Source: Candidatus Doudnabacteria bacterium
GTDB lineage: Bacteria; Patescibacteriota; Doudnabacteria; UBA920
DNA length: 64,000 bases
Reading direction: 5' to 3'
Assembly (NCBI GenBank): GCA_963768175.1
Contig: CAVYGQ010000001.1
Span: 254,305-318,304 of the forward strand
In this document: one piece after another, positions 4,938-61,336 of the stretch
Layout of the letters: each line of letters begins with the position of its first letter
Position numbering within the stretch: the first letter of the stretch is position 1
The notes under the pieces: generated by a model
The model's database searches: none
Seen by the model: only the letters and a program-made list of their open reading frames with translations
What the model was told of the DNA's origin: nothing
Position numbers and translations under genes: made by a program

Positions 4938-5006
4938 TTTTATATAAATAATATTGTTCGAGCCCTTCGACTCCGCTCAGGGCAGGCTTGTCGAGAACAA
5001 TGGTAA

Positions 5007-5042
5007 AAATATGCTTCTCTTCAGGGTCGAAGCATATTTTTT
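5007..5042 (+). terminator. intrinsic terminator after atpC
   Basis: aaatatgcttc-loop-gaagcatattt stem followed by a T6 run. Confidence 0.7.
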
Positions 5043-5726
5043 ATGAAAATAGATTACCAACCAAAATCCCAGCTTGAAAAGTTTGGCAAAAAAATTATTG
5101 ATTTGCTTGTGGACAACTTCCCGCAAACTTTTTTTGTTGGCGGCATGGTCCGAGACTTGCTACTAGGCAAAATTTTAACTGATATTGATATCGCGACACA
5201 AGCAACGCCTTCGGAAGTCATAAAGTTGCTAACCAATAACAATGTTGTCTGCGATGGCGCGTACAGCCTTTTTGGAATAGTTGTGGCAAAAAGAGGGCGC
5301 TATAAAATTGAAATCGCCACTTTTCGCAAAGACTTGCCAAGCAAAAACAGATACCCAAAAATTTGTTTTGTAAAAAACTTAAAACAAGATAGTAACCGCC
5401 GCGATTTTACTATAAATGCCTTATATTTAAGCCCGAAAAGTGGAAGAATCCTGGATTTCCATCAAGGATTGAAAGATTTAAAATTGAAGCTCTTAAAATT
5501 TATCGGCAACCCGGAAAAACGGATTAAAGAAGACCCTTTAAGAATAATCAGAGCTTTGCGCTTTGCGCAAACTTTAAACTTCAAGTTGGATGGCAGGGCG
5601 AAAAATGCCATGGAGAAAAATTTTCCACTTGTAAAAACTTTGACGAAATCGCGGATAAAAAATGAGTTAGAAAAAATCGCAAACCTAAATCATAAAAAAA
5701 TCATTTTAAACATAATGGGTAAATAA
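5043..5726 (+). CDS. tRNA nucleotidyltransferase/poly(A) polymerase family protein (head domain only, 227 aa)
   Basis: GGMVRD, DIDIAT (DxD) and RRDFTINA motifs of class II CCA-adding enzymes; unusually short. Confidence 0.7.
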   Translation: MKIDYQPKSQLEKFGKKIIDLLVDNFPQTFFVGGMVRDLLLGKILTDIDIATQATPSEVIKLLTNNNVVCDGAYSLFGIVVAKRGRYKIEIATFRKDLPSKNRYPKICFVKNLKQDSNRRDFTINALYLSPKSGRILDFHQGLKDLKLKLLKFIGNPEKRIKEDPLRIIRALRFAQTLNFKLDGRAKNAMEKNFPLVKTLTKSRIKNELEKIANLNHKKIILNIMGK

Positions 5727-5736
5727 AATTTGCTTG

Positions 5737-5765
5737 ACATAAAATAAAAAAAACTCTATAATAAA
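5737..5765 (+). promoter_or_regulatory. consensus sigma70-like promoter (TTGACA-17-TATAAT)
   Basis: ttgacataaaataaaaaaaactctataat: perfect -35 and -10 hexamers with a 17-nt spacer. Confidence 0.6.
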
Positions 5766-5984
5766 TTTATAATATAAATAATTACCGAAACGAAAAGATA
5801 ACTAACATAGAAAACAGAAAAAACTTATAAAGATAGAACTTGCAGTATCCAATAATCGCGTATTAGTTTCGCAAATAGTCTAAGATGACACTACTCAACT
5901 TGAGACATAAAGTTTCAAGATCCCAGGGTAGAAAATTAAGAAAGCTTGGCCAAAATTAGTCAAGCTTTCAGGGAGACTAGCCCA

Positions 5985-6047
5985 ATGGCTAAGAAAAGGA
6001 AAGTTGCAAAGAAGAAAAAGGGCGGTTCCAAAAAGAAGCGCCGCTAG
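5985..6047 (+). CDS. tiny, highly basic 20-aa ORF (MAKKRKVAKKKKGGSKKKRR)
   Basis: GGGAGA SD 8 nt upstream; followed by a hairpin plus T-run at 6076-6110; lies downstream of the strong promoter. Confidence 0.3.
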   Translation: MAKKRKVAKKKKGGSKKKRR

Positions 6048-6158
6048 TCTTTGCTTTCCGATGTTATCGGAATAACAAGGCCACCCCAAAATTAAGGGTG
6101 GTTTTGTTGTTTTTTTACGCAATAGACAAAAACGCCCAAAAAATTGGGCGTTTTTGTC

Positions 6159-6235
6159 TGGCGGACTGAACGGGACTCGAACCCGCGACCTCTCCCGTGA
6201 CAGGGGAGCGCTCTAACCAACTGAGCTACCAGTCC
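6159..6235 (-). tRNA. tRNA-Asp (anticodon GTC)
   Basis: Manual cloverleaf: acceptor GGACTGG/TCAGTCC, D-arm GCTC-AGTTGGTTA-GAGC, anticodon arm CTCCC-CTGTCAC-GGGAG, T-arm GCGGG-TTCGAGT-CCCGT, encoded CCA. Confidence 0.9.
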
Positions 6236-6380
6236 GTATTGTAAAACCTATTTCGTGCCCCCCCCGACTACGCTCGGGACACCACTCGACTCCGTTTAGA
6301 GTTTGTGGTTGGTTGAGGCCTATACTAGGCCGAAATCACGAGCGAGTTTTGACGATAGTCAAAACGAGTTGAGTGGTGCC

Positions 6381-6545
6381 GAAGAGAGGAATTGCACCTC
6401 TGACCTTGGGCTTACTTGCCCGCCCACCAAATTTGAGGCGTTTAGAAAGGTTTTTTTGGTAGCGGGAAGAGGAATTGCACCTCTGACCTTGGGCTTACTT
6501 GCCCGCCCACCAAATTTGAGGCGTTTAGAAAGGTTTTTTTGGTAG
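6381..6545 (-). repeat. tandem direct repeat of about 82 bp (two copies plus a third fused to a tRNA-like sequence) carrying a tRNA 3'-half-like segment
   Basis: agaggaattgcacctctgaccttgggcttacttgcccgcccaccaaatttgaggcgtttagaaaggtttttttggtagcgggaag repeated; the minus-strand reading contains AAGCCCAAGGTCAGAGGTGCAATTCCTCTTCCCGCTACCA. Confidence 0.8.
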
Positions 6546-6617
6546 CGGGAAGAGGAATTGCACCTCTGACCTTGGGCTTATGAGTTCCCACGCTCTAACT
6601 AACTGAGCTATCCCGCC
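6540..6617 (-). other. tRNA-like sequence (78 nt) with good acceptor, D and T stems but a non-canonical anticodon arm
   Basis: GGCGGGATAGCTCAGTTAGTTAGAGCGTGGGAACTCATAAGCCCAAGGTCAGAGGTGCAATTCCTCTTCCCGCTACCA; the anticodon stem does not pair canonically and the T-loop is TGCAATT. Confidence 0.4.
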
Positions 6618-6818
6618 ATGTAACATATTGTTGGGAAATTTGGTGGGCGGGTGAAAGTCCCACGCTCCCCGCCCGTACCGAACGGTATGTTCGGGCGGGT
6701 AACTAACTGAGCTATCCCGCCATGTAACATATTGTTGGGAAATTTGGTGGGCGGGTGAAAGTCCCACGCTCCCCGCCCGTACCGAACGGTACGTTCGGGC
6801 GGGTAACTAACTGAGCTA
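6595..6818 (-). repeat. tandem direct repeat of about 112 bp (two copies plus a partial) carrying a tRNA 5'-fragment and a GC-rich palindrome
   Basis: ctaactaactgagctatcccgccatgtaacatattgttgggaaatttggtgggcgggtgaaagtcccacgctccccgcccgtaccgaacggta(t/c)gttcgggcgggtaa occurs twice. Confidence 0.8.
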
Positions 6819-7188
6819 CCCCGGCACGCCGCAACTCGCTCCAAGCTCCAGAATTTGCTAAAGCAAATTACTTTCGCTTTCCGCGGTTGCTCCTCTTTCC
6901 CAAAAATCCGTGCTCGTCACCCTGAGGGTGACTGCGCTCCTAATTTTCAGGAGCCTTTTTTTATAAAAACCCTCGTGCAGAGGGTAAAATCTGTCACGAT
7001 TTTAACTTTTTTAGTTTAACAATGTCGCATTCGCAACCACGGATTAGCCATATGTTCCCAAATGGGCTCTCCAAATTTTCTTCCTGGAAATGTCCTAGGA
7101 AAATTTGGGGAGAGGGGCAACATTCCGAACGAAGTGGAGTATCTCGCCCAAAGCGCGATACAAAACGGAGTGAGGAATGATTAACCCG

Positions 7189-7264
7189 TGGTTGCGGGAC
7201 CCGGACTCGAACCGGGAACCTCAAGGTTATGAGCCTTGCGAGCTGCCAATTGCTCTATCCCGCG
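7189..7264 (-). tRNA. tRNA-Met (anticodon CAT), with initiator-like features
   Basis: Cloverleaf: acceptor CGCGGGA/TCCCGCA with C1xA72 mismatch, D-arm GAGC-AATTGGCA-GCTC (A11:U24), anticodon arm CAAGG-CTCATAA-CCTTG, T-arm CCCGG-TTCGAGT-CCGGG, encoded CCA. Confidence 0.85.
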
Positions 7265-7378
7265 ATAATAGCTGATATATTATACTACACAACCTTTTTA
7301 AAAGCAACCGGCTCTTTTTGACTTCAGCTTCGTTTAAAGCTAGACTTTGAATATCATACGGAAAGGAGGAGGCTTCCA

Positions 7379-7765
7379 ATGCCTCAACGCGGTTGTATCC
7401 TTGTTTTGATGCCCGGCACACTCGTGCCAGTAATGCCCCAAGTCTATGCCACCATTCGCCAGGGACCCGAAAAACATCCCGTGGAAGTCTATGTACCGCT
7501 AACAACACTAATAAAAGATAGGAAGAACTATTTCCACATCGAGGATGGGCCCCATTCTCTTTGTGCGGAACTCTATCCCAGAACCATAGCGGTACTGGAT
7601 ATGGGCAGCGGCAAGTTGTTGTGGCTGAACGAAGGTTTGCTGGCGCGCAACCCTCAAATTTGCGGGAGATGCTTTTGTGTACAACCAGTACACAAAGATG
7701 ACTGCCCCACCACAGGAAACGGCATCGACGGACCGCGGAATTCCGCGGCCGAGGTTGGGGGGTGA
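7379..7765 (+). CDS. hypothetical 128-aa Cys-containing protein
   Basis: Strong SD AAGGAGGAGG directly upstream; followed by an 18-bp perfect palindromic terminator; GC slightly raised; adjacent to the tRNA genes. Confidence 0.5.
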   Translation: MPQRGCILVLMPGTLVPVMPQVYATIRQGPEKHPVEVYVPLTTLIKDRKNYFHIEDGPHSLCAELYPRTIAVLDMGSGKLLWLNEGLLARNPQICGRCFCVQPVHKDDCPTTGNGIDGPRNSAAEVGG

Positions 7766-7791
7766 GACCATCTCCCTTCCATTTTTAAAAC

Positions 7792-7835
7792 AAACCATCC
7801 CGCCTCTTTAAAGAGGCGGGATGGTTTTAAATTAT
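7792..7835 (+). terminator. palindromic terminator (aaaccatcccgcctcttt/aaagaggcgggatggttt)
   Basis: 18-bp perfect inverted repeat followed by an AT-rich tract. Confidence 0.6.
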
Positions 7836-8047
7836 TTATTCCTTTTTTGCTTTAATTTCCCGCCTTTGGGCCAAAGGCTAGGGGAGGGCTCTCTTTCCCC
7901 TGATGTTATTCAGGATAATCCCGTCCTCTCCTAACCGCAAACCCAAAGGCGGAGATTAATGATTAGACTTCTGTTATCACTCTATACCCAAGATTGATAA
8001 TTTGTCAAGCGGTTGTTTTTGGCTAAAAAATATAGTATAATAAGCGC

Positions 8048-9082
8048 ATGCAAACAACCATTCTTTACGTAATAATCCTTGTACTTTTGGCAGGTTTTGG
8101 CTTGCTTTTTTATTTTTTAACCGACTTAAAAAAGAAGACAGAAAAACCTACTGATGACCAAGGCATGAAAGTTATGATGGAATGGATGAAAGAGATAAAG
8201 CAAGGCACGGATGCCACACGCGAAGGCATGCAAAAAACCATCGACCAGACCAACAAGGCAATAAATGAACGATTGGACAATGCCGGCCGTGTAATCGCCG
8301 CGCTTACCAAAGAATTGGGAGGCATATCACAAGTCGGCCCGGACATCCGCCGGCTCACGGAAACTTTGGCGTCGCCCAAATTAAGAGGCAACTTTGGCGA
8401 AGAGATGCTGGAAAACATGCTTTCCCAGGCTTTGCCGAAAAACGGTTACGAAATCCAGCACAAATTTAATAACGGCGAAGTGGTGGATGCGATTATTTAC
8501 GTTGGGGACAAGATTTTGCCCATAGACAGCAAATTCAGCATGGAAAACTTCCGGCTTTACAAAGAAGCCAAAACCGAAGAGGCCGCCGAGGGCTTAAAAA
8601 AATCTTTTTTAAAAGACGTTAAAAAACGAGTAGACGAAATCCACAAAAAATATATTCTGCCGCAGGAGAACACTTTTGATTTTGCATTAATGTACATCCC
8701 TTCCGAAGGCGTATTCAGCGAGGTACTGGACGATACGGCGACGTTAACTTACGGCAGGGAAAAAAAAGTCTATTTTGTCAGCCCGAACACCCTGTATCAT
8801 CATTTGCAAATAATTTTATTGTCGCTTCGCGGGCAAAAGGTTAACGAAGCAGCCCAGCAGATATTGGCAATGATAGCCGGTATTAAACAGGAATCCGATA
8901 AATTCGGCCGCAATTTGGAAGTCTTGGGCAGTCACATCAAAAACGCCGGCAACACCATGGGCACGGTCAACAACGACTTTGCCAAATTAAAAACCAGCAT
9001 TAGCAACGCCGCGACGCTAGAGCTAAAAGAAACCGGCGAGGTAGATAAAGCCGCTGAAAAACCCCAAAAGTTATTGGAATAA
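8048..9082 (+). CDS. rmuC: DNA recombination protein RmuC homologue
   Basis: N-terminal TM helix, a long coiled-coil region, and a C-terminal region LRGNFGEEMLENML...YIPSEGVF typical of the RmuC family. Confidence 0.75.
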   Translation: MQTTILYVIILVLLAGFGLLFYFLTDLKKKTEKPTDDQGMKVMMEWMKEIKQGTDATREGMQKTIDQTNKAINERLDNAGRVIAALTKELGGISQVGPDIRRLTETLASPKLRGNFGEEMLENMLSQALPKNGYEIQHKFNNGEVVDAIIYVGDKILPIDSKFSMENFRLYKEAKTEEAAEGLKKSFLKDVKKRVDEIHKKYILPQENTFDFALMYIPSEGVFSEVLDDTATLTYGREKKVYFVSPNTLYHHLQIILLSLRGQKVNEAAQQILAMIAGIKQESDKFGRNLEVLGSHIKNAGNTMGTVNNDFAKLKTSISNAATLELKETGEVDKAAEKPQKLLE

Positions 9083-17318: not shown

Positions 17319-18461
17319 ATGACTGAGAATATTGTTATTTCAACCACGGAAGAAAACCGTTTAAAAAAAGAACTGGAAAAACGCACCGACTTTGAGGCTC
17401 AGCGCATAAGGCGGTATTTAAGCATGCCGGATTTGTCGCGCACCCCTGGACACCCACTTTATGAAATTGTCCAGCGAATCTTAAATTGGCCTTATTTTAA
17501 AGACTTGGATGTAATCGAAGTACCGGAAATTGTTCCTGCCAATATAAGTTTTGATTTATTTGATTTTCCGGCAGACCATCCTGCCAGAAGCAAGTCAGAT
17601 ACTTATTACGTTGATGAAAAAAATATTTTGCGCACCCATACAACCGTAATGTGGTATTATTATCTGCGGGACGAAAAAATCAAAAAACGCATGGCTGCCG
17701 ACGAACCGGTCGGCTGTTTCAGTTTTGGCAAAGTTTATCGCAAGGACGAGATAGACCGATATCATATGAATGTTTTTCATCAAATTGATGGCTGGTATCT
17801 TGCGCCGAAAGACAAAAAAGTTATTGGGATAGACATTTTAAAAGAAGCTTTGTCAAATTTTGCACAAGCTGTTTTTGGAACAGATGTCCAAGTACGCTTT
17901 AACAAAGATACGTTCCCATATACTGATCCTTCTTTGGAAATGGAAGTGAAAAAAGGCGATCAATGGTTGGAAGTAGCCGGAGCCGGTGTAGTAAAAGGAA
18001 GTGTTTTGGAAAAATTCGGCGTTGATTCTTCAAAATGGAACGGCTGGGCTTTTGGGCCGGGCATAGAACGTTTTGCGCTTATTTCGATAGACTTGCCGGA
18101 CATCCGCCTATTATGGTCAACCGACCCAAGAGTAACCAAGCAATTACATCTTGGACAAAAATTTGTGGAAGTCAGCAAATACCCGCCAATTACCCGCGAT
18201 ATATCTTTTGTTGTCGGCAGCGATTTTGTGCCCAACAACTATTTTGACCTAATCCGCGACATTGGCGGCGACCTTGTGGAGCAAGTGAAGCTTTTGGATA
18301 AGTACCAGGACGAAAAAAAGTTCGGTCCGGGAAAAGTCAGCTATACCTACCGCGTGGTCTATCGCAGTCCCGAACGGACGCTGAAAACCGATGAAGTTGA
18401 GCCCTTGCAAAACAAGCTTTACGAGCAAACCAAAGAGCAATACAACGCCCAATTACGATAA
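17319..18461 (+). CDS. pheS: phenylalanine--tRNA ligase alpha chain with a C-terminal FDX-ACB anticodon-binding domain (monomeric, mitochondrial-type architecture)
   Basis: Class II catalytic core (FPADHPARS, RTHTT, GWAFGPGIERFA), then YPPITRDISFVV ... GKVSYTYRVVYRSPERTLKTDEV, which resembles the FDX-ACB domain normally found at the PheT C-terminus. Confidence 0.8.
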   Translation: MTENIVISTTEENRLKKELEKRTDFEAQRIRRYLSMPDLSRTPGHPLYEIVQRILNWPYFKDLDVIEVPEIVPANISFDLFDFPADHPARSKSDTYYVDEKNILRTHTTVMWYYYLRDEKIKKRMAADEPVGCFSFGKVYRKDEIDRYHMNVFHQIDGWYLAPKDKKVIGIDILKEALSNFAQAVFGTDVQVRFNKDTFPYTDPSLEMEVKKGDQWLEVAGAGVVKGSVLEKFGVDSSKWNGWAFGPGIERFALISIDLPDIRLLWSTDPRVTKQLHLGQKFVEVSKYPPITRDISFVVGSDFVPNNYFDLIRDIGGDLVEQVKLLDKYQDEKKFGPGKVSYTYRVVYRSPERTLKTDEVEPLQNKLYEQTKEQYNAQLR

Positions 18462-18462
18462 C

Positions 18463-18501
18463 ACAAGGGGCATCCTTTTGCTGCAAAAGGATGCCCCTTG
18501 T
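18463..18501. repeat. Family-1 variant palindromic element (39 bp perfect hairpin) 2 nt after the pheS stop
   Basis: acaaggggcatccttttgctgcaaaaggatgccccttgt: 16-bp stem, 5-nt loop; identical (inverted) copy at 60782-60820. Confidence 0.85.
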
Positions 18502-18531
18502 TGGTAAGTAATTGTTGATAACTTTAAACCC

Positions 18532-50565: not shown

Positions 50566-53500
50566 TTAATTCACATCCACCATATCTATCTGCGGAATCA
50601 GCCGCAATTTCGTCATCAGTTCGTTACTCATCGCCACTTGCGACTGGGTTTTTATTTTTTTTGCCCCCAAACCCGAGCCGACCGACAAATAAACCTGGAC
50701 GTTGCCCGGATGGGTTTGCAAAATATTTTTTATCTTGTTTAAAACATCTTTTTCGGCCAACGCCGACATATGCAAAACCACCTGCCGCTTTTTTTCCATT
50801 TGGCTCAGCGCCGTTGTGTATAAGTCGTCGTTCGGAAGCTCCGTAATTGTGTCCGCGATTAATTTAAACTCCTCGTCCTTGTCGGAAAGCCGGCCGGTAA
50901 CCTGCACAATTTTATCGTTTTCCAAAAACGGCAAACTTTTTTCCATGACTGTGGGGAAAACCAATACCTCTATGCTGCCGGTGAAATCTTCCAGGATAAA
51001 AAAGGCCATTGGGTCGTTCTTGCGCGTTAAAGTCCTCTTCATGCGGGAAACAATGCCCCCCATGACCACGTTTGCCCCAAGCTCGTCCAAAGTCAGGCTT
51101 TTAACCGTCCTTAAAGTAGCCAGCACTTTGCCGTAAGCATCCAGTGGATGCGCCGAAACATACATGCCCAAGTGCTCTTTTTCCCAAAGCAATTTTTCCT
51201 CTTTGGTGGCCGCCACAGATTCCCTTAATTTTAGTTTGCCGGCCTGCAAAGATTTGCCGAACAGGGAGTTTTGGCCGCTGGCTTCATTTTTAAAATGCTG
51301 CCGCACGAAGTCCAAAACTTCTTCGGTGTTATTAAGCAGCTGGCCGCGTTCGCCAAAAGCATCCAGCGCTCCGGCCTTAACCAAAGCTTCCCAGGACTTT
51401 TTGTTAAGATTTTTGGTATGAGATTTTATAAGGAAGTCTTCAAGGGATTGGAAATCGGCTTGGCCGGAAGTCGGACTTGATGAATTTTCCGATTTTCCGA
51501 TTTTCCGATTTTCCGATCTAACCTGTATAATCTTCTCTATCACATCGCTCCCCAAATTTTTAATCGCGTTTAGGCCAAAGCGGATAGTTTTGTCATCAAC
51601 TACGGTAAAATCGCCGAGCGATTCGTTTACATCCGGCGGCAAAACGGCAATACCCAAAGCCTGGCAGTCTTCCACGGCTTCGTAAATTTTTTCTTCGTCA
51701 CCGGACTCCGCGGTCATAAGCGCGGCCATAAATTCCACCGGAAAATTGGCCTTCATATAGGCGGTTTGGTAGCTGACAATGGCATACGAAGCCGAGTGCG
51801 CCTTGTTAAAACCATAAGCCGCAAACGGCTCTATCCACGTCCAAATTTGCGTAGCCTTTTCAAAGCTCCATTTGGAAGTTTCCTGGCAGCCCTGGATAAA
51901 CTTAATTTTTTGCTTGGCCATTTCCTCGGGAATTTTTTTGCCCACGGCTTTGCGGAACTTGTCCACCTCTTCCCAGGTATAGCCGGCCAAATCGTGCGCA
52001 ATAGTCAAAAGATCATCCTGGTAAACCAGCACCCCGTAAGTCCGGGAAAGGATTTTTTCCAGCGCCGGATCAAAGTATTTTATTAATTTTGGGTTGTTTT
52101 TGCGGGCAATGTACTCGGGAATAAACTGCATCGGACCAGGGCGGTAAAGCGCTATCATGGCCATAATGTCAAAAATTGACGACGGCTTGAGTTCGCGCAA
52201 ATACCGCGTCATGCCCGAAGAGCCCAGCTGGAACACGCCAAAAGTTAAACCCTCCGATAACAATTTAAAAGTTTTCGGGTCGGGATGGGGGAGATTGTAA
52301 ATATCTATCTTCACGCCGTGGCGCTGCTCCGTCATTTTTACCGCTGATTCCAGAATGCTAAGGTTGCGGATACCCAACAAATCCAGCTTGACCACGCCCA
52401 AAGCTTTGCCGTTGGCGTTAACGTCCAAAGCGTACATATCGTACTGGGTAATAATTCTTTCGCCGTCCGGCTCTTTTTGCAGCGGCATATAGTCGGTAAG
52501 GACGGTTGGGGTAATCACGATTCCGGCGGCGTGCATGGAGGCGTGGCGCGCGCAACCTTCCAGTTTTTTGGCGATTTCCAAAACGTGCCGGGTCTCCGGA
52601 TCATGGTCATAAATTTCCTTGAGCTCCGGACTTTTTCCCAAAGCCTTGTCCAAAGTCATTTGGAAACCCTGCTTGCCCAATCGGGATCATTTTGGCAATT
52701 TGGTCGCACTTGGAATAAGGCACGGCCAGCGCGCGGCCGGCATCGCGCACCGCGGCGCGCGCGGTCATGGTGCCAAAAGTAATAATTTGCGCGACTTTAT
52801 CTTTGCCGTAGTGTTCGGTAATATATTCTATGACCTCGTCACGGCGGTTGTCGGCAATATCCAAATCAATATCGGGCGGGGTGGGGCGATGCATGGTTAA
52901 AAAACGCTCAAACGGCAATTCATAATAAAGCGGGTCAACGTTGGTAATGCCCAAAATGCGCCCGACAATACTGCCGGCGGCGCTGCCCCTGGTGTTGGTA
53001 ATGGCGCCGATGTCATGCGCTCCCGCTACCACATCGGCCACCATTAAAAAATAAGTGTCAAAACCTTTTTTACAGATAATGTTCAGCTCGTAATCTATGC
53101 GCTGCTTGATGTCTTCGGGCAGGCGGCCGCTTTGGCCGTAAAGCGGCAACGCTTTTTCATAAGTAATCTTTTTAAGATATTCTTCGGATGTTTCGCCTTC
53201 CGGAATTTTAACTTTGGGAAAATATCGTCTGGTTAATTAATATTTCCAAATCGCACAGGTCGGCGACTTTTTGGGTGTTTTCCAAAGCTTCGGGCAAATC
53301 GGAAAACAGTTCCCACATCTTTTCCGGCGATTTTAAGGAAAGCTCGTAGCCGCGCATATCCAAACGGTCCTGGTCGTTTACCGTGCGTCCCGTGCCAATA
53401 CAAACCAGCACGTCCTGGGCCTCGGCGTCCTCGGGATAGATATAATGGCAGTCGGCGGTGGCGACAATGCCAAGATTATTCTTTTTGGCCAGAGCGATTA

Positions 53501-54074
53501 GTTTTTGGTTCAATTCTTCTTCCTTTGGATCTTTTGACTTGCTGTTTCTCTGAATTTCAATAAACAGCTTCTCGGGTCCAAAAATGTCCAAATATTTTCC
53601 CAAAACTTTTTGCGCCTCGGTTTCGGACTTGTTTGTTACCGCGCGCGCGATTTCCCCGCGCTGGCAACCGGACAGGCAAAGCAACCCTCCAGAGTGCTGT
53701 TTTAACAAAGCAAGGTCTATTCTCGGCTTATAATAAAACCCGCGTAAGTGGGCCTCGGTGGTGAGCTTGATTAAATTTTTATATCCGGAGTTGTTTTGGG
53801 CGAGCAAAATCAAATGATGGTAGTCCGCGTCCACCCTGCCTTCCTTTTCCTCCATGCCGCGCGGCGCTATGTAGGCTTCCAGCCCGACAATGGGTTTTAT
53901 TCCGGCTTCCCTACACTTGTTGTAAAATTCAATTGTCCCGTACATCACGCCGTGATCGGTAACGGCCAGCGCTTCCATACCGAGCTCTTTGGCGCGTTCA
54001 ATCAGCGGGTCAATTTTTGACAACCCGTCAAGCAGGGAATAATGGGAGTGGCAATGGAGATGGGTAAAGGTCAT
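50566..54074 (-). pseudogene. dnaE: DNA polymerase III alpha subunit (dnaE) interrupted by two apparent frameshifts (ORFs 53208-54074, 52607-53149(-53237), 50566-52680)
   Basis: PHP domain (HLHCHSHYSLLDG), palm/fingers, OB domain in three consecutive frames; shifts at about 53213-53224 (tattttcccaaa) and about 52650-52680 (cagggtttcc). Confidence 0.8.
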
Positions 54075-60218: not shown

Positions 60219-61336
60219 TTTTTTAACGCCTCCTTTTTCAGTTCCAAATCCGCCTTTTGCAGGGCTTCGGCTATGGGGGTGAATTTACCTTCCATTATTA
60301 AATTTATCTGGTTAAAGTTCTGGTTTATTCGATGGTCAGTTACGCGATCTTGCGGGAAATTATAAGTGCGGATTTTTTCCGAGCGGTCGCCAGTGCCGAT
60401 TTGGGATTTGGTGAGGTCGCGGACTTTTTTATTTTCTATTTCCCCGTAATACGCGGCAACGCGGGCGCGGATGACTTCCAGAGCTTTTTCCCGGTTTTGC
60501 GCTTGCGATCTTTCGTCCTGGCACTGCGCGGTTATGCCGGTTGGGATGTGGGTAATGCGGATAGCCGAATAAGTCGTGTTAACCGACTGCCCGCCGTGCC
60601 CGCTGGAAGTGGTGGCTTCTATTTTTAAATCTTTTTCCGCAATGGCGTAATCTTTTTCTTCCAAAATCGGCAAAACCGCGACAGTTATAGTGGAAGTATG
60701 GACGCGGCCGCTTTTTTCCGTTTCCGGCACGCGCTGGACGCGGTGTACGCCGGATTCGTATTTGAAAACACTATACGGCCCACAAGGGGCATCCTTTTGC
60801 AGCAAAAGGATGCCCCTTGTGGCATGAATTTCAAAAATAATTTCCTTAAACCCGCCGGCGTCCGAACGCGAAGAAGAAACAATATGCGGCTTTAATCCCA
60901 GCTCTTCGGCAAATTTGCCGTAAGCGCGAAACATCTCGGCCGCGAACAATGTCGCTTCATCGCCGCCAGCCCCGGCGCGGATTTCCACAATGGCGTTTTT
61001 GGAGTCGTTGGGATTTTTGGGCAAGAGCATCTCTTCTATTTCGGATTTTAGATTTAAGATTTCGGATTCAAGCCGCCTGGATTCATCGAGAGCCATGGAC
61101 TTGATTTCCGGATTATTATCAGCCAATAATTTCTGGTTATCTTCAAGTTCTTTAATCTTTAATCCTAAATCTTTAATCTTTTCCACAACCGGCTCCAACT
61201 CCGCCTGTCGTTTGCCCAACTTGGCCATGCCTAAAGAGCCGCCCGACCTGTCCCCCGAAGCTTTAGCGAAGGGGGGAGACATGTCCGCGGTCAGCCGGTT
61301 ATATTCGTCTAAGATTTTTTGAAAAGCGATTTCCAT
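60215..61336 (-). CDS. prfA: peptide chain release factor 1
   Basis: GGQ motif (SGHGGQSVN), PET tripeptide in the RF1 PxT position, GVHRVQRVP; start is probably the Met at 61336 (MEIAFQKIL) directly after the conserved leader motif; contains in-frame 39-bp hairpin element ([13 protein letters not shown]). Confidence 0.88.
60782..60820. repeat. Family-1 variant 39-bp hairpin element inserted in frame in prfA
   Basis: acaaggggcatccttttgcagcaaaaggatgccccttgt is the exact reverse complement of the copy at 18463-18501. Confidence 0.85.

What the first reader, a model, noticed from the sequence alone, without database searches (positions are those of the whole stretch)
6381..6830. Tandem array of tRNA-derived fragments with long complementary GC-rich segments between tRNA-Asp and tRNA-Met
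On the minus strand the order is: two 112-bp units, each starting with a tRNA 5' fragment (G)GCGGGATAGCTCAGTTAGTTA followed by a GC-rich palindrome and CACCCGCCCACCAAATTT; then a 78-nt tRNA-like sequence with a non-canonical anticodon arm; then two 82-bp units, each ending in a tRNA 3' half (…AAGCCCAAGGTCAGAGGTGCAATTCCTCTTCCCGCTACCA) and preceded by AAATTTGGTGGGCGGG. The latter is the reverse complement of the segment in the 5' units. This could be stacked att-site remnants of tRNA-targeting integrative elements, or a split/processed tRNA-like arrangement (compare the complementary leaders of split tRNAs in Nanoarchaeum). I cannot distinguish these from sequence alone.
Basis: partly seen in the sequence, partly recalled or inferred. 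Interest (0 to 1): 0.65.

Follow-up and report, generated by a model that had tools for sequence, protein, structure and literature searches.

The report
Russian-doll tRNA gene with palindromes
A methionine-type tRNA gene in an ultra-small (Patescibacteria) bacterium has been split twice, one copy inside the other, by a small gene-less insertion that brings its own spare tRNA, and its 32-base hairpin marks a widespread family of tRNA-targeting elements for which my limited literature searches found no description.

Summary
It reads: outer 5' half, middle 5' half, one complete tRNA(CAU), middle 3' half, outer 3' half. The acceptor strands pair layer by layer. Each displaced 5' half carries a 32-nt palindromic hairpin in its D-loop. 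Each layer is closed by a perfect 16-bp leader/trailer helix.

Related Patescibacteria genomes have a single intact tRNA(CAU) at this site. The outer halves are continuous with the orthologous flanks, so they are the split resident gene. Three other genomes have one layer with a different leader that is still complementary.

The same hairpin is almost letter-identical in at least 120 metagenome contigs. It nearly always sits in a truncated tRNA 5' fragment just upstream of a complete tRNA, often with a 75-80 aa Slx1-like GIY-YIG nuclease gene between them.

Best reading: relics of a non-splicing, intron-like mobile cassette that carries a replacement tRNA and then re-entered its own spare copy. 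No integrase, group I intron core or workable archaeal-type splice motif was found. The mechanism is inferred, not shown.

The parts
6804..6825 (-). Outer layer, tRNA positions 1-21 (GCCGGGGTAGCTCAGTTAGTTA): 5' end of the resident tRNA(CAU) gene
   Evidence: Exact coordinates. Same acceptor type as the single-copy genes in L001, L020, L025 and L017, and continuous with the orthologous upstream flank.
6772..6803 (-). Hairpin copy 1 (CCCGCCCGAACGTACCGTTCGGTACGGGCGGG), inserted between D-loop position 21 and D-stem position 22
   Evidence: Identical to the commonest variant found in at least 120 metagenome contigs.
6756..6771 (-). Outer layer, positions 22-33 plus TTCA (GAGCGTGGGACTTTCA): D-stem 3' strand, anticodon-stem 5' strand and the start of the anticodon loop up to the split anticodon CA|T
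   Evidence: Junction found by comparison with intact orthologues.
6740..6755 (-). Leader L, copy 1 (CCCGCCCACCAAATTT)
   Evidence: 16/16 complementary to L'.
6722..6739 (-). Spacer s1, copy 1 (CCCAACAATATGTTACAT)
   Evidence: part of the 104-bp repeat.
6700..6721 (-). Middle layer, positions 1-21 (GGCGGGATAGCTCAGTTAGTTA), cassette-type acceptor strand
   Evidence: Pairs with TCCCGCT of the middle 3' half.
6668..6699 (-). Hairpin copy 2 (one G-to-A difference from copy 1)
6652..6667 (-). Middle layer, positions 22-33 plus TTCA
6636..6651 (-). Leader L, copy 2
6618..6635 (-). Spacer s1, copy 2
6540..6617 (-). Innermost complete tRNA(CAU), 78 nt with CCA encoded; one extra A between positions 31 and 32; presumed live gene
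   Evidence: ARAGORN labels it 'tRNA-???'. Rfam tRNA 53.2 bits with one insert. Positions 8-65 are otherwise identical to the orthologues.
6518..6539 (-). Spacer s2, copy 1 (AAAAAACCTTTCTAAACGCCTC)
   Evidence: part of the 83-bp repeat.
6502..6517 (-). Trailer L', copy 1 (AAATTTGGTGGGCGGG)
6457..6501 (-). CAAG plus the middle-layer 3' half (positions 36-76, ...TCCCGCTACCA)
6435..6456 (-). Spacer s2, copy 2
6419..6434 (-). Trailer L', copy 2
6374..6418 (-). CAAG plus the outer-layer 3' half (positions 36-76, ...CTTCGGCACCA): 3' end of the resident gene
   Evidence: Followed by a trailer homologous to the one after the intact gene in L001 and L020.

Best explanation
**What it is.** The locus is a resident elongator-type tRNA(CAU) gene of a Patescibacteria chromosome. 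It has been interrupted by a small, ORF-less, intron-like mobile cassette. The cassette consists of a 32-nt palindromic hairpin placed at D-loop position 21/22 and a second insertion inside the anticodon (between A35 and T36). This second insertion contains leader L, spacer, a complete replacement tRNA(CAU) gene, spacer, and the complementary trailer L'. The split resident gene is dead, and the imported inner tRNA takes over its job.

**How the second layer arose (inferred).** The same event then happened again in the imported tRNA, giving a second layer. The most economical route is a double-strand break in the intact inner copy, repaired using the flanking split copy as template (self-homing). 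Two unequal crossovers would give the same product.

**Role of the L/L' helix (inferred).** It is most likely kept either as a processing stalk that releases the inner tRNA from the chimeric transcript, as the stems flanking rRNAs do, or as the cassette's inverted terminal repeat.

**Wider family (shown) and its mobilisation (inferred).** The cassette belongs to a widespread Patescibacteria family. Autonomous members carry a 75-80 aa Slx1-like GIY-YIG nuclease gene between the hairpin-marked 5' fragment and the complete tRNA. The window's copy would be a non-autonomous relative mobilised in trans.
For: **Shown**
1. Nested anatomy with layer-matched acceptor stems and three nested cloverleaves in the minimum-energy fold.
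2. Empty sites exist. At least 18 related genomes have one intact tRNA(CAU) in the same fMet - Met - Asp synteny. The window's outer halves are continuous with the orthologous flanks.
3. L010, L024 and L007 have the same architecture with one layer. They have a hairpin at 21/22, an insertion at 35/36 and an inner intact tRNA, but a different leader that is still complementary. Window versus L010 shows 4 compensatory pairs of 15 and 0 one-sided changes. The 4-bp helix next to the junction also covaries.
4. In those three genomes the outer halves have decayed (mismatched acceptor or D stems, lost CCA). The inner tRNAs stay complete and are called as tRNA-Met(CAU), so the inner copy is the selected one.
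5. The 32-nt hairpin is near-identical in at least 120 metagenome contigs and in the tRNA-Asp of L010 and L018.
   - In 48 of 125 occurrences a complete same-strand tRNA follows within 700 nt.
   - 30 occurrences have a GIY-YIG ORF beside the hairpin, mostly between it and the tRNA.
   - Only 1 of 104 hairpins lies in an otherwise intact tRNA.
   - The 5' fragments are usually near-identical (often 100%) to the first 18-40 nt of the downstream tRNA.
6. Other tRNAs show the same nested, leader-flanked design: L052 (Ile), L092/L100 (Val, at least 3 layers) and L124 (Ala). Among about 195 tRNAs with scorable flanks in all loci, flank complementarity of 10 nt or more occurs in only ten tRNAs; eight of these belong to the nested cases, against a background mode of 6-7 nt.
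7. The hairpin occurs in both orientations relative to the tRNA and the GIY-YIG gene, as expected of a DNA-level palindrome.
8. The GIY-YIG proteins match only PF01541. Their closest solved relatives are the bacterial Slx1-like UPF0213 proteins (PMC1564403).

**Precedent.** The T4 GIY-YIG endonuclease SegB acts in a tRNA gene cluster and drives segmental amplification (PMC2330249, PMC13096335).
Against: - No nuclease gene lies in the 64-kb window, so mobilisation in trans is assumed.
- No cleavage site, donor or intermediate has been observed. The homing step is inferred from anatomy only.
- In L010 the outer 5' half has a foreign-looking acceptor strand while the inner tRNA and the outer 3' half are of the local type. 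A simple 'resident split, foreign inner' history does not explain this without extra recombination.
- Slx1-like GIY-YIG proteins are not from the classical homing-endonuclease lineage and have no DNA-binding domain, so sequence-specific homing is not established.
- The innermost tRNA has an 8-nt anticodon loop and may not be fully functional, or the extra A may be an assembly error.
- Among non-Watson-Crick positions in the leader helices, G-T outnumbers A-C on the sense strand (about 6 to 3). This hints at RNA-level selection but is not significant.
Confidence: 0.6

Rival explanations
1. There was only one insertion event. The second layer arose later by two independent unequal crossovers or replication slippages between the short direct repeats the first insertion created. 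On the left these are D-arm repeats 104 bp apart. On the right they are 3'-half repeats 83 bp apart.
For: The repeat registers fit exactly. The 104-bp unit runs from position 8 of one 5' half to position 7 of the next, and the 83-bp unit from position 36 onward. The copies are 99-100% identical, so the duplication is recent. SegB-type amplification of tRNA segments is documented (PMC13096335).
Against: It needs two independent events that happen to add exactly one unit on each side. One repair event using the split copy as template gives both at once. Stacked 5' fragments upstream of live tRNAs are common in the family (L092, L094, L124), which suggests a recurrent directed process.
Confidence: 0.2
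2. A functional split or nested tRNA at the RNA level. The outer halves are transcribed, held together by the leader helix, and joined or used as a two-piece tRNA, as in Nanoarchaeum split tRNAs or archaeal bulge-helix-bulge introns.
For: Complementary GC-rich leaders with compensatory changes. Layer-matched acceptor stems and encoded CCA ends. A 4-bp helix flanked by 3-nt bulges next to the junction resembles a bulge-helix-bulge motif. In L010, L007 and L024, precise removal of the insert would restore a CAU anticodon loop.
Against: - The host is bacterial (F-type ATP synthase, RmuC, AddA-like helicase, C1-A72 initiator tRNA). Bacteria have no known splicing endonuclease, and none appeared among the 40 ORFs scanned.
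- Canonical cleavage in the two bulges would give the loop ACUUUCG without U33.
- Precise excision in the window gives a 9-nt loop.
- A 32-nt hairpin sits in the D-loop.
- The outer halves are decayed in L010, L024 and L007.
- ARAGORN intron mode finds no sensible tRNA, with or without the hairpins.
Confidence: 0.07
3. Stacked attachment-site remnants left by successive integrase-mediated integrations and deletions of genomic islands in a tRNA gene.
For: tRNA genes are classic integration targets, and tandem islands leave repeated tRNA 3' portions (established knowledge).
Against: No integrase or recombinase in the 40 ORFs scanned. The units are 83-104 bp with no island remnants. 5' halves are duplicated as well as 3' halves. 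The arrangement is nested with complementary arms. The same hairpin-marked design recurs beside GIY-YIG genes, not integrases.
Confidence: 0.03
4. Assembly artefact: a repeat-induced mis-join or over-expansion of one split gene.
For: Short-read contigs of the same sample (Logan, ERR10755942) stop at 6215 and restart at 7798, so the array is not independently assembled there. DnaE in the window is in three reading frames, so indel errors are possible.
Against: The flanks are 100% and 99.98% identical to the independent contigs. The two 5' units differ by a SNP and by acceptor sequence, so both exist. The number of 3' units matches the number of 5' units and the acceptor strands pair by layer, which an assembler would not create. 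Single-layer and multi-layer versions occur in unrelated assemblies.
Confidence: 0.05

Closest known systems
Free-standing GIY-YIG homing endonucleases in tRNA gene clusters (phage T4 SegB)
   Same: A small GIY-YIG nuclease gene sits among tRNA genes. Breaks in tRNA genes are repaired by copying the nuclease-bearing allele with its flanks, and this can amplify tRNA segments (PMC2330249, PMC13096335).
   Different: The associated proteins here are minimal Slx1-like/UPF0213 domains with no DNA-binding domain. The window's copy has no nuclease gene. The target tRNA is split and replaced by an imported copy nested inside it. A conserved 32-nt palindrome marks the displaced fragment.
Group I introns in the anticodon loops of Patescibacteria tRNA genes (positions 33/34 and 35/36; PMC13011429)
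   Same: Same phylum, same target (the tRNA anticodon loop, including 35/36), and the insert ends in G.
   Different: No group I catalytic core: no Intron_gpI match at E up to 1, and the insert proper is too short. The 5' exon ends in A, not U. The insert contains a whole tRNA gene. Nothing indicates self-splicing.
Split tRNA genes of Nanoarchaeum equitans and archaeal bulge-helix-bulge introns
   Same: 5' and 3' tRNA halves carry GC-rich complementary extensions that would bring them together. A helix flanked by bulges lies at the junction.
   Different: Bacterial host. The halves are nested on one strand around a complete tRNA. The motif is not canonical and its predicted product is invalid. 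The outer halves decay in relatives.
Integrative elements that restore the tRNA gene they integrate into
   Same: A mobile element targets a tRNA gene and supplies sequence that keeps a functional tRNA.
   Different: No integrase. The element supplies a whole tRNA inside the disrupted one rather than a replacement 3' end. It is tiny (about 190 bp).
Small palindromic repeat elements (REP/RAYT, Rickettsia palindromic elements, MITEs)
   Same: A short, highly conserved palindrome is spread over many loci and genomes, in either orientation, and is tolerated inside RNA-gene sequence.
   Different: At least about half of the copies found here sit next to a tRNA gene, at two precise sites of tRNA 5' fragments (after position 9 or 21), and many are linked to a GIY-YIG rather than a tyrosine (Y1) transposase.
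RNase III processing stems flanking rRNAs, and intervening sequences in bacterial 23S rRNA
   Same: Long complementary flanks around an embedded stable RNA; excision without re-ligation.
   Different: Here the embedded RNA is a tRNA inside another tRNA. Processing has not been shown.

Membership tests
Nanoarchaeum-type split tRNA | 5' and 3' halves encoded as separate, dispersed genes with their own promoters | tested here: not met
   All halves lie on one strand within 452 bp, nested around a complete tRNA.
Nanoarchaeum-type split tRNA | Complementary GC-rich extensions that pair the two halves | tested here: met
   16/16 complementary in both layers, with compensatory differences from L010.
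Nanoarchaeum-type split tRNA / archaeal BHB intron | Canonical bulge-helix-bulge (3-nt bulge, 4-bp helix, 3-nt bulge) whose cleavage and ligation gives a normal 7-nt anticodon loop | tested here: not met
   The window has AAG and TCA bulges around ACTT/AAGT, but with an extra unpaired C. L010, L024 and L007 have only a 1x1 loop on one side. The predicted product ACUUUCG lacks U33.
Nanoarchaeum-type split tRNA / archaeal BHB intron | Host encodes a splicing endonuclease (EndA) and an RtcB-type ligase | not testable with these tools
   None among the 40 window ORFs scanned, but the rest of the genome is not available. The host is bacterial.
Group I intron in tRNA | Conserved catalytic core detectable by the Rfam Intron_gpI model | tested here: not met
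   No such match at E up to 1 in 5000-9000.
Group I intron in tRNA | 5' exon ends in U; intron ends in G | tested here: not met
   The intron-like insert ends in G (CAAG/CGAG), but the 5' exon ends in A35.
Integrase-mediated island at a tRNA att site | Tyrosine or serine recombinase gene next to the repeated tRNA portion | tested here: not met
   Pfam scan of 40 ORFs across the window found only housekeeping genes.
Integrase-mediated island at a tRNA att site | Direct repeats of one end of the tRNA flanking kilobases of foreign DNA | tested here: not met
   Both ends are repeated, the units are 83-104 bp, and the order is nested.
GIY-YIG homing cassette at tRNA genes (SegB-like behaviour) | GIY-YIG nuclease gene within or beside the element | tested here: not met
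   tblastn of the family against the window is negative. A GIY-YIG ORF lies beside 30 of 125 hairpin occurrences elsewhere (PF01541).
GIY-YIG homing cassette at tRNA genes (SegB-like behaviour) | Presence/absence polymorphism at orthologous sites, with flanking homology to the target | tested here: met
   0, 1 or 2 layers at the same fMet-Met-Asp locus in related genomes. The 5' fragments are near-identical to the target tRNA.
GIY-YIG homing cassette at tRNA genes (SegB-like behaviour) | Nuclease cleaves the empty target site | not testable with these tools
   Needs biochemistry.
Hairpin-marked tRNA 5'-fragment cassettes of Patescibacteria (family defined here) | 32-nt palindrome CCCGCCCGAACGTACCGTTCGGTACGGGCGGG after tRNA position 21 (or 9) of a truncated 5' fragment, upstream of a complete tRNA | tested here: met
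   Two copies in the window, one identical to the commonest variant. At least 120 contigs elsewhere.

The most novel reading that the evidence does not exclude
The nested gene works at the RNA level. The whole array would be one transcript in which the palindromic stems are processing or joining signals, and the outer layers would be assembled or spliced into usable tRNAs. This would be the first non-self-splicing tRNA intron or split tRNA system in Bacteria, with a tRNA matured from inside another tRNA.
Probability: 0.07. Interest if true: 0.95.

Novelty: new variant of a known kind. Interest (0 to 1): 0.68.

Why it matters
**Conceptual.** If the reading is right, these elements solve the problem of inserting into an essential single-copy gene in a third way. 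They neither splice out (introns) nor rebuild the gene's end (integrative islands). They carry a complete spare copy inside the gene they break. Because the spare is again a target, this predicts recursive 'Russian-doll' genes, which is what is seen here.

**Function of a protein family.** The data link the poorly understood bacterial Slx1-like/UPF0213 GIY-YIG proteins to a concrete genomic behaviour: hairpin-marked cassettes at tRNA genes.

**Annotation.** tRNA finders mislabel or miss these loci, and partial tRNA fragments inflate or confuse tRNA counts in Patescibacteria genomes. Apparent tRNA losses in this phylum are already debated.

**A search handle.** The conserved 32-nt palindrome is an easy way to find many more cases.

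Tried and rejected
- **Rfam, permissive thresholds, 5000-9000.** Only the three tRNAs matched. No intron, ribozyme or other family was found.
- **ARAGORN in intron mode, with and without the hairpins.** It gave only artefactual joins of the inner 5' part to the next 3' half.
- **Independent assemblies through neighbouring proteins.** The Logan contigs are identical in the flanks but end before the array. The ORF at 7379-7765 and the two mechanical ORFs over the array are not on record.
- **GIY-YIG homologue in the window.** None by tblastn.
- **Integrase, transposase, EndA or RtcB.** None in 40 ORFs.
- **Hairpin contexts that did not look like tRNA.** Rfam on 20 such loci showed only tRNAs nearby, in the opposite orientation.
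- **Viral contigs.** One loose hairpin match and no GIY-YIG relatives.
- **NCBIfam.** It has no model for these GIY-YIG proteins.
- **Literature.** Searches for the hairpin sequence, for GIY-YIG + tRNA + Patescibacteria, for nested or split bacterial tRNAs, and for UPF0213/COG2827 found no description of this arrangement.
- **RNA versus DNA selection on the helices.** I tried to decide this from the G-T versus A-C mismatch bias, but there are too few events.
- **MAFFT alignment A1 of the junction region.** It put the indel out of register with the pairing, so I counted pairs with a script instead.
- **The 'tRNA-Stop(tta)' call in L078.** Rejected; it is most likely tRNA-Lys(UUU) read in another register.
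Full report
**1. The observation**

Tandem Repeats Finder gives a 104-bp unit (2.2 copies, 98%) and an 83-bp unit (2.4 copies, 100%). The 16-mer CCCGCCCACCAAATTT and its complement AAATTTGGTGGGCGGG each occur twice, with 16/16 pairing in all four combinations. A 32-nt palindrome occurs twice with one G/A difference.

ARAGORN finds tRNA-Asp (6159-6235), an odd 'tRNA-???' (6540-6617) and a tRNA-Met (7189-7264). The latter has the C1-A72 mismatch of a bacterial initiator.

**2. The array is nested**

Reading 5' to 3':
- Outer 5' half: GCCGGGG..., positions 1-21.
- Hairpin.
- Positions 22-33 plus TTCA.
- Leader L.
- Spacer s1.
- Middle 5' half (GGCGGGA...) with the same hairpin, L and s1.
- A complete 78-nt tRNA(CAU) (GGCGGGA...TCCCGCTACCA).
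- Spacer s2, trailer L', CAAG and the middle 3' half (positions 36-76, TCCCGCTACCA).
- Spacer s2, L', CAAG and the outer 3' half (CTTCGGCACCA).

Outer pairs with outer (5 Watson-Crick + 2 G-U pairs). Middle pairs with middle (6 + 1). Crossed combinations have 1-2 mismatches. The 466-nt RNA folds as three nested cloverleaves: -192.7 kcal/mol, z = -7.25.

**3. Host and context**

The neighbours are:
- F-type ATP synthase subunits;
- a short PolyA_pol-head protein;
- RmuC;
- an AddA-like helicase-nuclease;
- aminoacyl-tRNA synthetases;
- GyrB, GreA, DnaB, RecR and DnaE.

This is a bacterial chromosome, about 44% G+C. None of the 40 ORFs scanned is an integrase, transposase, homing endonuclease, EndA or RtcB.

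A scan of one genome per species with the unusual T-arm 21-mer gave 26 loci. Most are Patescibacteria MAGs labelled Doudnabacteria, Saccharibacteria or Zambryskibacteria.

**4. The ancestral state**

In at least 18 of those genomes the same fMet - Met(CAU) - Asp synteny holds a single intact 77-nt tRNA(CAU). Positions 8-65 are identical to the window's copies, and only the acceptor stem varies between genomes.

An alignment shows two things:
- The window's outer 3' half runs straight into the trailer that follows the intact gene in L001 and L020.
- The outer 5' half follows the same upstream sequence as in L008.

So the outer halves are the resident gene, split. The inner and middle layers have an acceptor stem (GGCGGGA/TCCCGCT) seen in none of the other genomes, which suggests import.

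**5. The same design elsewhere at this gene**

L010, L024 and L007 have one layer. Each has a 5' half with a hairpin of another sequence (CCTGCCTGCCGGCAGGCAGG) at 21/22. The insertion lies between A35 and T36 of the anticodon, and it holds an intact inner tRNA(CAU) followed by a 3' half. Their leader is GCCCGCACTAAATTT / AAATTTAGTGCGGGC.

| Helix | Pairing |
|---|---|
| Window leader | 16/16 |
| L010 leader | 15/15 |
| L024 leader | 13 Watson-Crick + 2 G-U |
| L007 leader | 13 + 1 G-U + 1 mismatch |

Window versus L010 differs at 4 of 15 pairs, all compensatory. The 4-bp helix formed by positions 31-34 with the last bases of the insert plus T36 also covaries: ACTT/AAGT, ACTC/GAGT, ATTC/GAGT.

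The outer halves in these genomes are degraded, while the inner tRNAs remain complete and are called as tRNA-Met(CAU):
- L010: acceptor 4 of 7 pairs, D stem GCTC/GATC.
- L024: no acceptor 5' strand and no CCA.
- L007: an insertion in the D arm and a 3' end reading ATCA.

Pairing of the arms is maintained, but the outer tRNA as such is not.

**6. The hairpin is a widespread signature**

The window's hairpin recurs in the D-loop of a tRNA-Asp 5' fragment in L010 and L018. In L018 the order is: positions 1-21, hairpin, positions 22-40, a small GIY-YIG ORF, then a complete tRNA-Asp.

In 104 of 125 occurrences the unconstrained right arm closes the hairpin, while the loop varies.

The dominant architecture is:
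- a tRNA 5' fragment, usually near-identical (often 100%) to the first 18-40 nt of the downstream tRNA;
- the hairpin after position 21/22 or position 9;
- a 75-80 aa ORF (PF01541 only) at about +55 to +285;
- a complete tRNA at about +290.

Shorter ORF-less versions put the tRNA 50-130 nt after the hairpin. Many tRNA identities are involved: Ala, Arg, Asp, Ile, Lys, Thr, Val, Phe and His. Only 1 of 104 hairpins lies in an otherwise intact tRNA. The hairpin occurs in either orientation relative to the ORF and tRNA, which points to a DNA-level palindrome.

The proteins' closest solved relatives are UPF0213 proteins 1ywl and 1zg2, with a faint SLX1 match. These are the 'prokaryotic Slx1-like' minimal GIY-YIG domains of PMC1564403. 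That lineage is separate from classical homing endonucleases and related to structure-specific nucleases.

**7. Nesting is a family trait**

- L052 (tRNA-Ile) and L124 (tRNA-Ala) have split outer tRNAs around an inner tRNA with complementary arms.
- L092/L100 (tRNA-Val) has an inner tRNA inside a D-loop insert of a well-preserved outer tRNA, a second insert at 37/38, and further hairpin-marked 5' fragments upstream.
- Among about 195 tRNAs with scorable flanks (of 200 predicted in all fetched loci), flank complementarity of 10 nt or more occurs in only ten. Eight of these belong to the nested cases. The mode is 6-7 nt.

**8. Mechanism: what is shown and what is inferred**

Shown:
- insertion polymorphism at the orthologous site;
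- a split resident gene;
- an intact inner gene;
- conserved pairing of the arms;
- a shared hairpin signature with GIY-YIG cassettes.

Inferred:
- A break in the tRNA gene is repaired from a cassette-bearing allele, using the tRNA halves as homology arms.
- Because the cassette's spare tRNA is itself an intact target flanked by the split copy, a further break copies the whole cassette into it and adds a layer.
- Two unequal crossovers between the D-arm repeats (104 bp apart) and the 3'-half repeats (83 bp apart) would give the same product. I keep this as a rival for the second layer.
- The L/L' helix may be a processing stalk for the inner tRNA or the cassette's inverted repeat. The mismatch spectrum is too small to decide between these.
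- The hairpin may be the nuclease's structured target. It may also break up the direct repeat that would otherwise delete the cassette.

A sequence-level oddity may bear on origin. L and L' share the central AAATTT, so L-AAATTT-L' would be a perfect 26-nt palindrome. The same holds in L010. It looks as if the tRNA segment sits in the centre of a palindrome with AAATTT duplicated.

**9. Readings tested and not supported**

- **Group I intron.** No core by Rfam, the insert is too short, and the 5' exon ends in A. The 35/36 site does coincide with the intron site reported for Patescibacteria tRNA-Asn and tRNA-Asp (PMC13011429).
- **Archaeal-type splicing.** The look-alike motif is non-canonical. 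Its product would be ACUUUCG. Precise excision in the window gives a 9-nt loop (CTTTCA|TAA).
- **Integrase att stacks.** No recombinase, and the geometry is wrong.
- **Artefact.** The flanks are 100% and 99.98% identical to independent short-read contigs that break before the array. The SNP between hairpins, the matched unit numbers and the layer-wise pairing argue that the array is real. Direct spanning evidence is still lacking.

**10. Caveats**

- The extra A in the innermost anticodon loop could be real (a scar, a resistance change, or a defect) or a homopolymer error. DnaE in this window is in three frames.
- L010's outer 5' half has a cassette-like acceptor strand, which needs extra recombination to explain.
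- No nuclease activity, RNA data or whole-genome view is available.
- My literature search was limited to open-access text and found no description of this arrangement.

**11. Verdict**

It is best read as relics of a recursive, tRNA-carrying, intron-like mobile cassette from a widespread and apparently undescribed Patescibacteria family marked by a conserved palindrome and Slx1-like GIY-YIG genes. I rate it a new variant of a known kind (nuclease-driven selfish insertions at tRNA genes), with interest 0.68.

Noticed in passing
window 7032-7051 and 7177-7196 (minus-strand RNA); also 6366-6378 and 6280-6292: The sequence downstream of the initiator tRNA is complementary to that tRNA's own 3' end, including ACCA. 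The tRNA(CAU) trailer likewise contains GAGTCGAGTGGTG, which pairs with CACCACTCAACTC at the tRNA's 3' end. Both pairings are conserved in related genomes (L007; L001, L020). They may be a 3'-end sequestering or processing structure.
   Followed up: partly
window 6965-7003 (minus strand): The motif AAAATCGTGACAGATTTT followed by a terminator-like hairpin and a T-run sits between the fMet and Met tRNAs in most related loci. It matches no Rfam family.
   Followed up: partly
window 6886-6947 (minus strand); L010 about 7683-7745; L004: A conserved 62-nt element, AAAATTAGGAGCGCAGT-hairpin-ACGAGCACGGATTTTTGGGAAAGAGGAGCAAC, lies next to these tRNA genes in several genomes. No Rfam match at E up to 1. 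It is a possible undescribed small RNA or leader.
   Followed up: no
window 50566-54074 (minus strand): DNA polymerase III alpha (DnaE) is spread over three consecutive ORFs in different frames (PHP domain; a 180-aa middle piece; the rest). This means two frameshifts: either assembly indels or a genuinely broken or recoded gene.
   Followed up: partly
window 18450-18514 and 60780-60822: The same 21-nt-arm palindrome (CCACAAGGGGCATCCTTTTGC / GCAAAAGGATGCCCCTTGTGG) occurs at two distant places. It may be another repeated palindromic element or a shared terminator.
   Followed up: no
window 6419-6434 with 6740-6755 (and the second pair); L010 7452-7466 with 7596-7610: L and L' share the central AAATTT, so together they would form a perfect palindrome (26 nt in the window, 24 nt in L010). 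The inner tRNA segment looks as if it was inserted at a palindrome centre with AAATTT duplicated.
   Followed up: partly
L010 5767-5786: The second hairpin type (CCTGCCTGCCGGCAGGCAGG), found in the D-loops of L010, L024 and L007, also occurs in a non-tRNA context inside a longer inverted repeat. The palindromes are therefore not confined to tRNA fragments.
   Followed up: no
L090 (hairpin-oriented extract, +458 to about +620): This is the only case of 104 where the hairpin, with an expanded loop, sits in the D-loop of an otherwise complete tRNA-Ile. It lies directly downstream of a normal copy and a GIY-YIG cassette. It may be a freshly hit gene.
   Followed up: partly
window 5043-5726: A 227-aa protein with only the PolyA_pol head domain plus a weak RNA-binding motif is encoded about 430 bp from tRNA-Asp. 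It is unusually short for a CCA-adding enzyme.
   Followed up: no
L026 4700-7945: 33 tRNA genes are packed into about 3.3 kb in a MAG labelled Acidobacteria. One of them shares the unusual GGTGCAATTCC T-loop.
   Followed up: no
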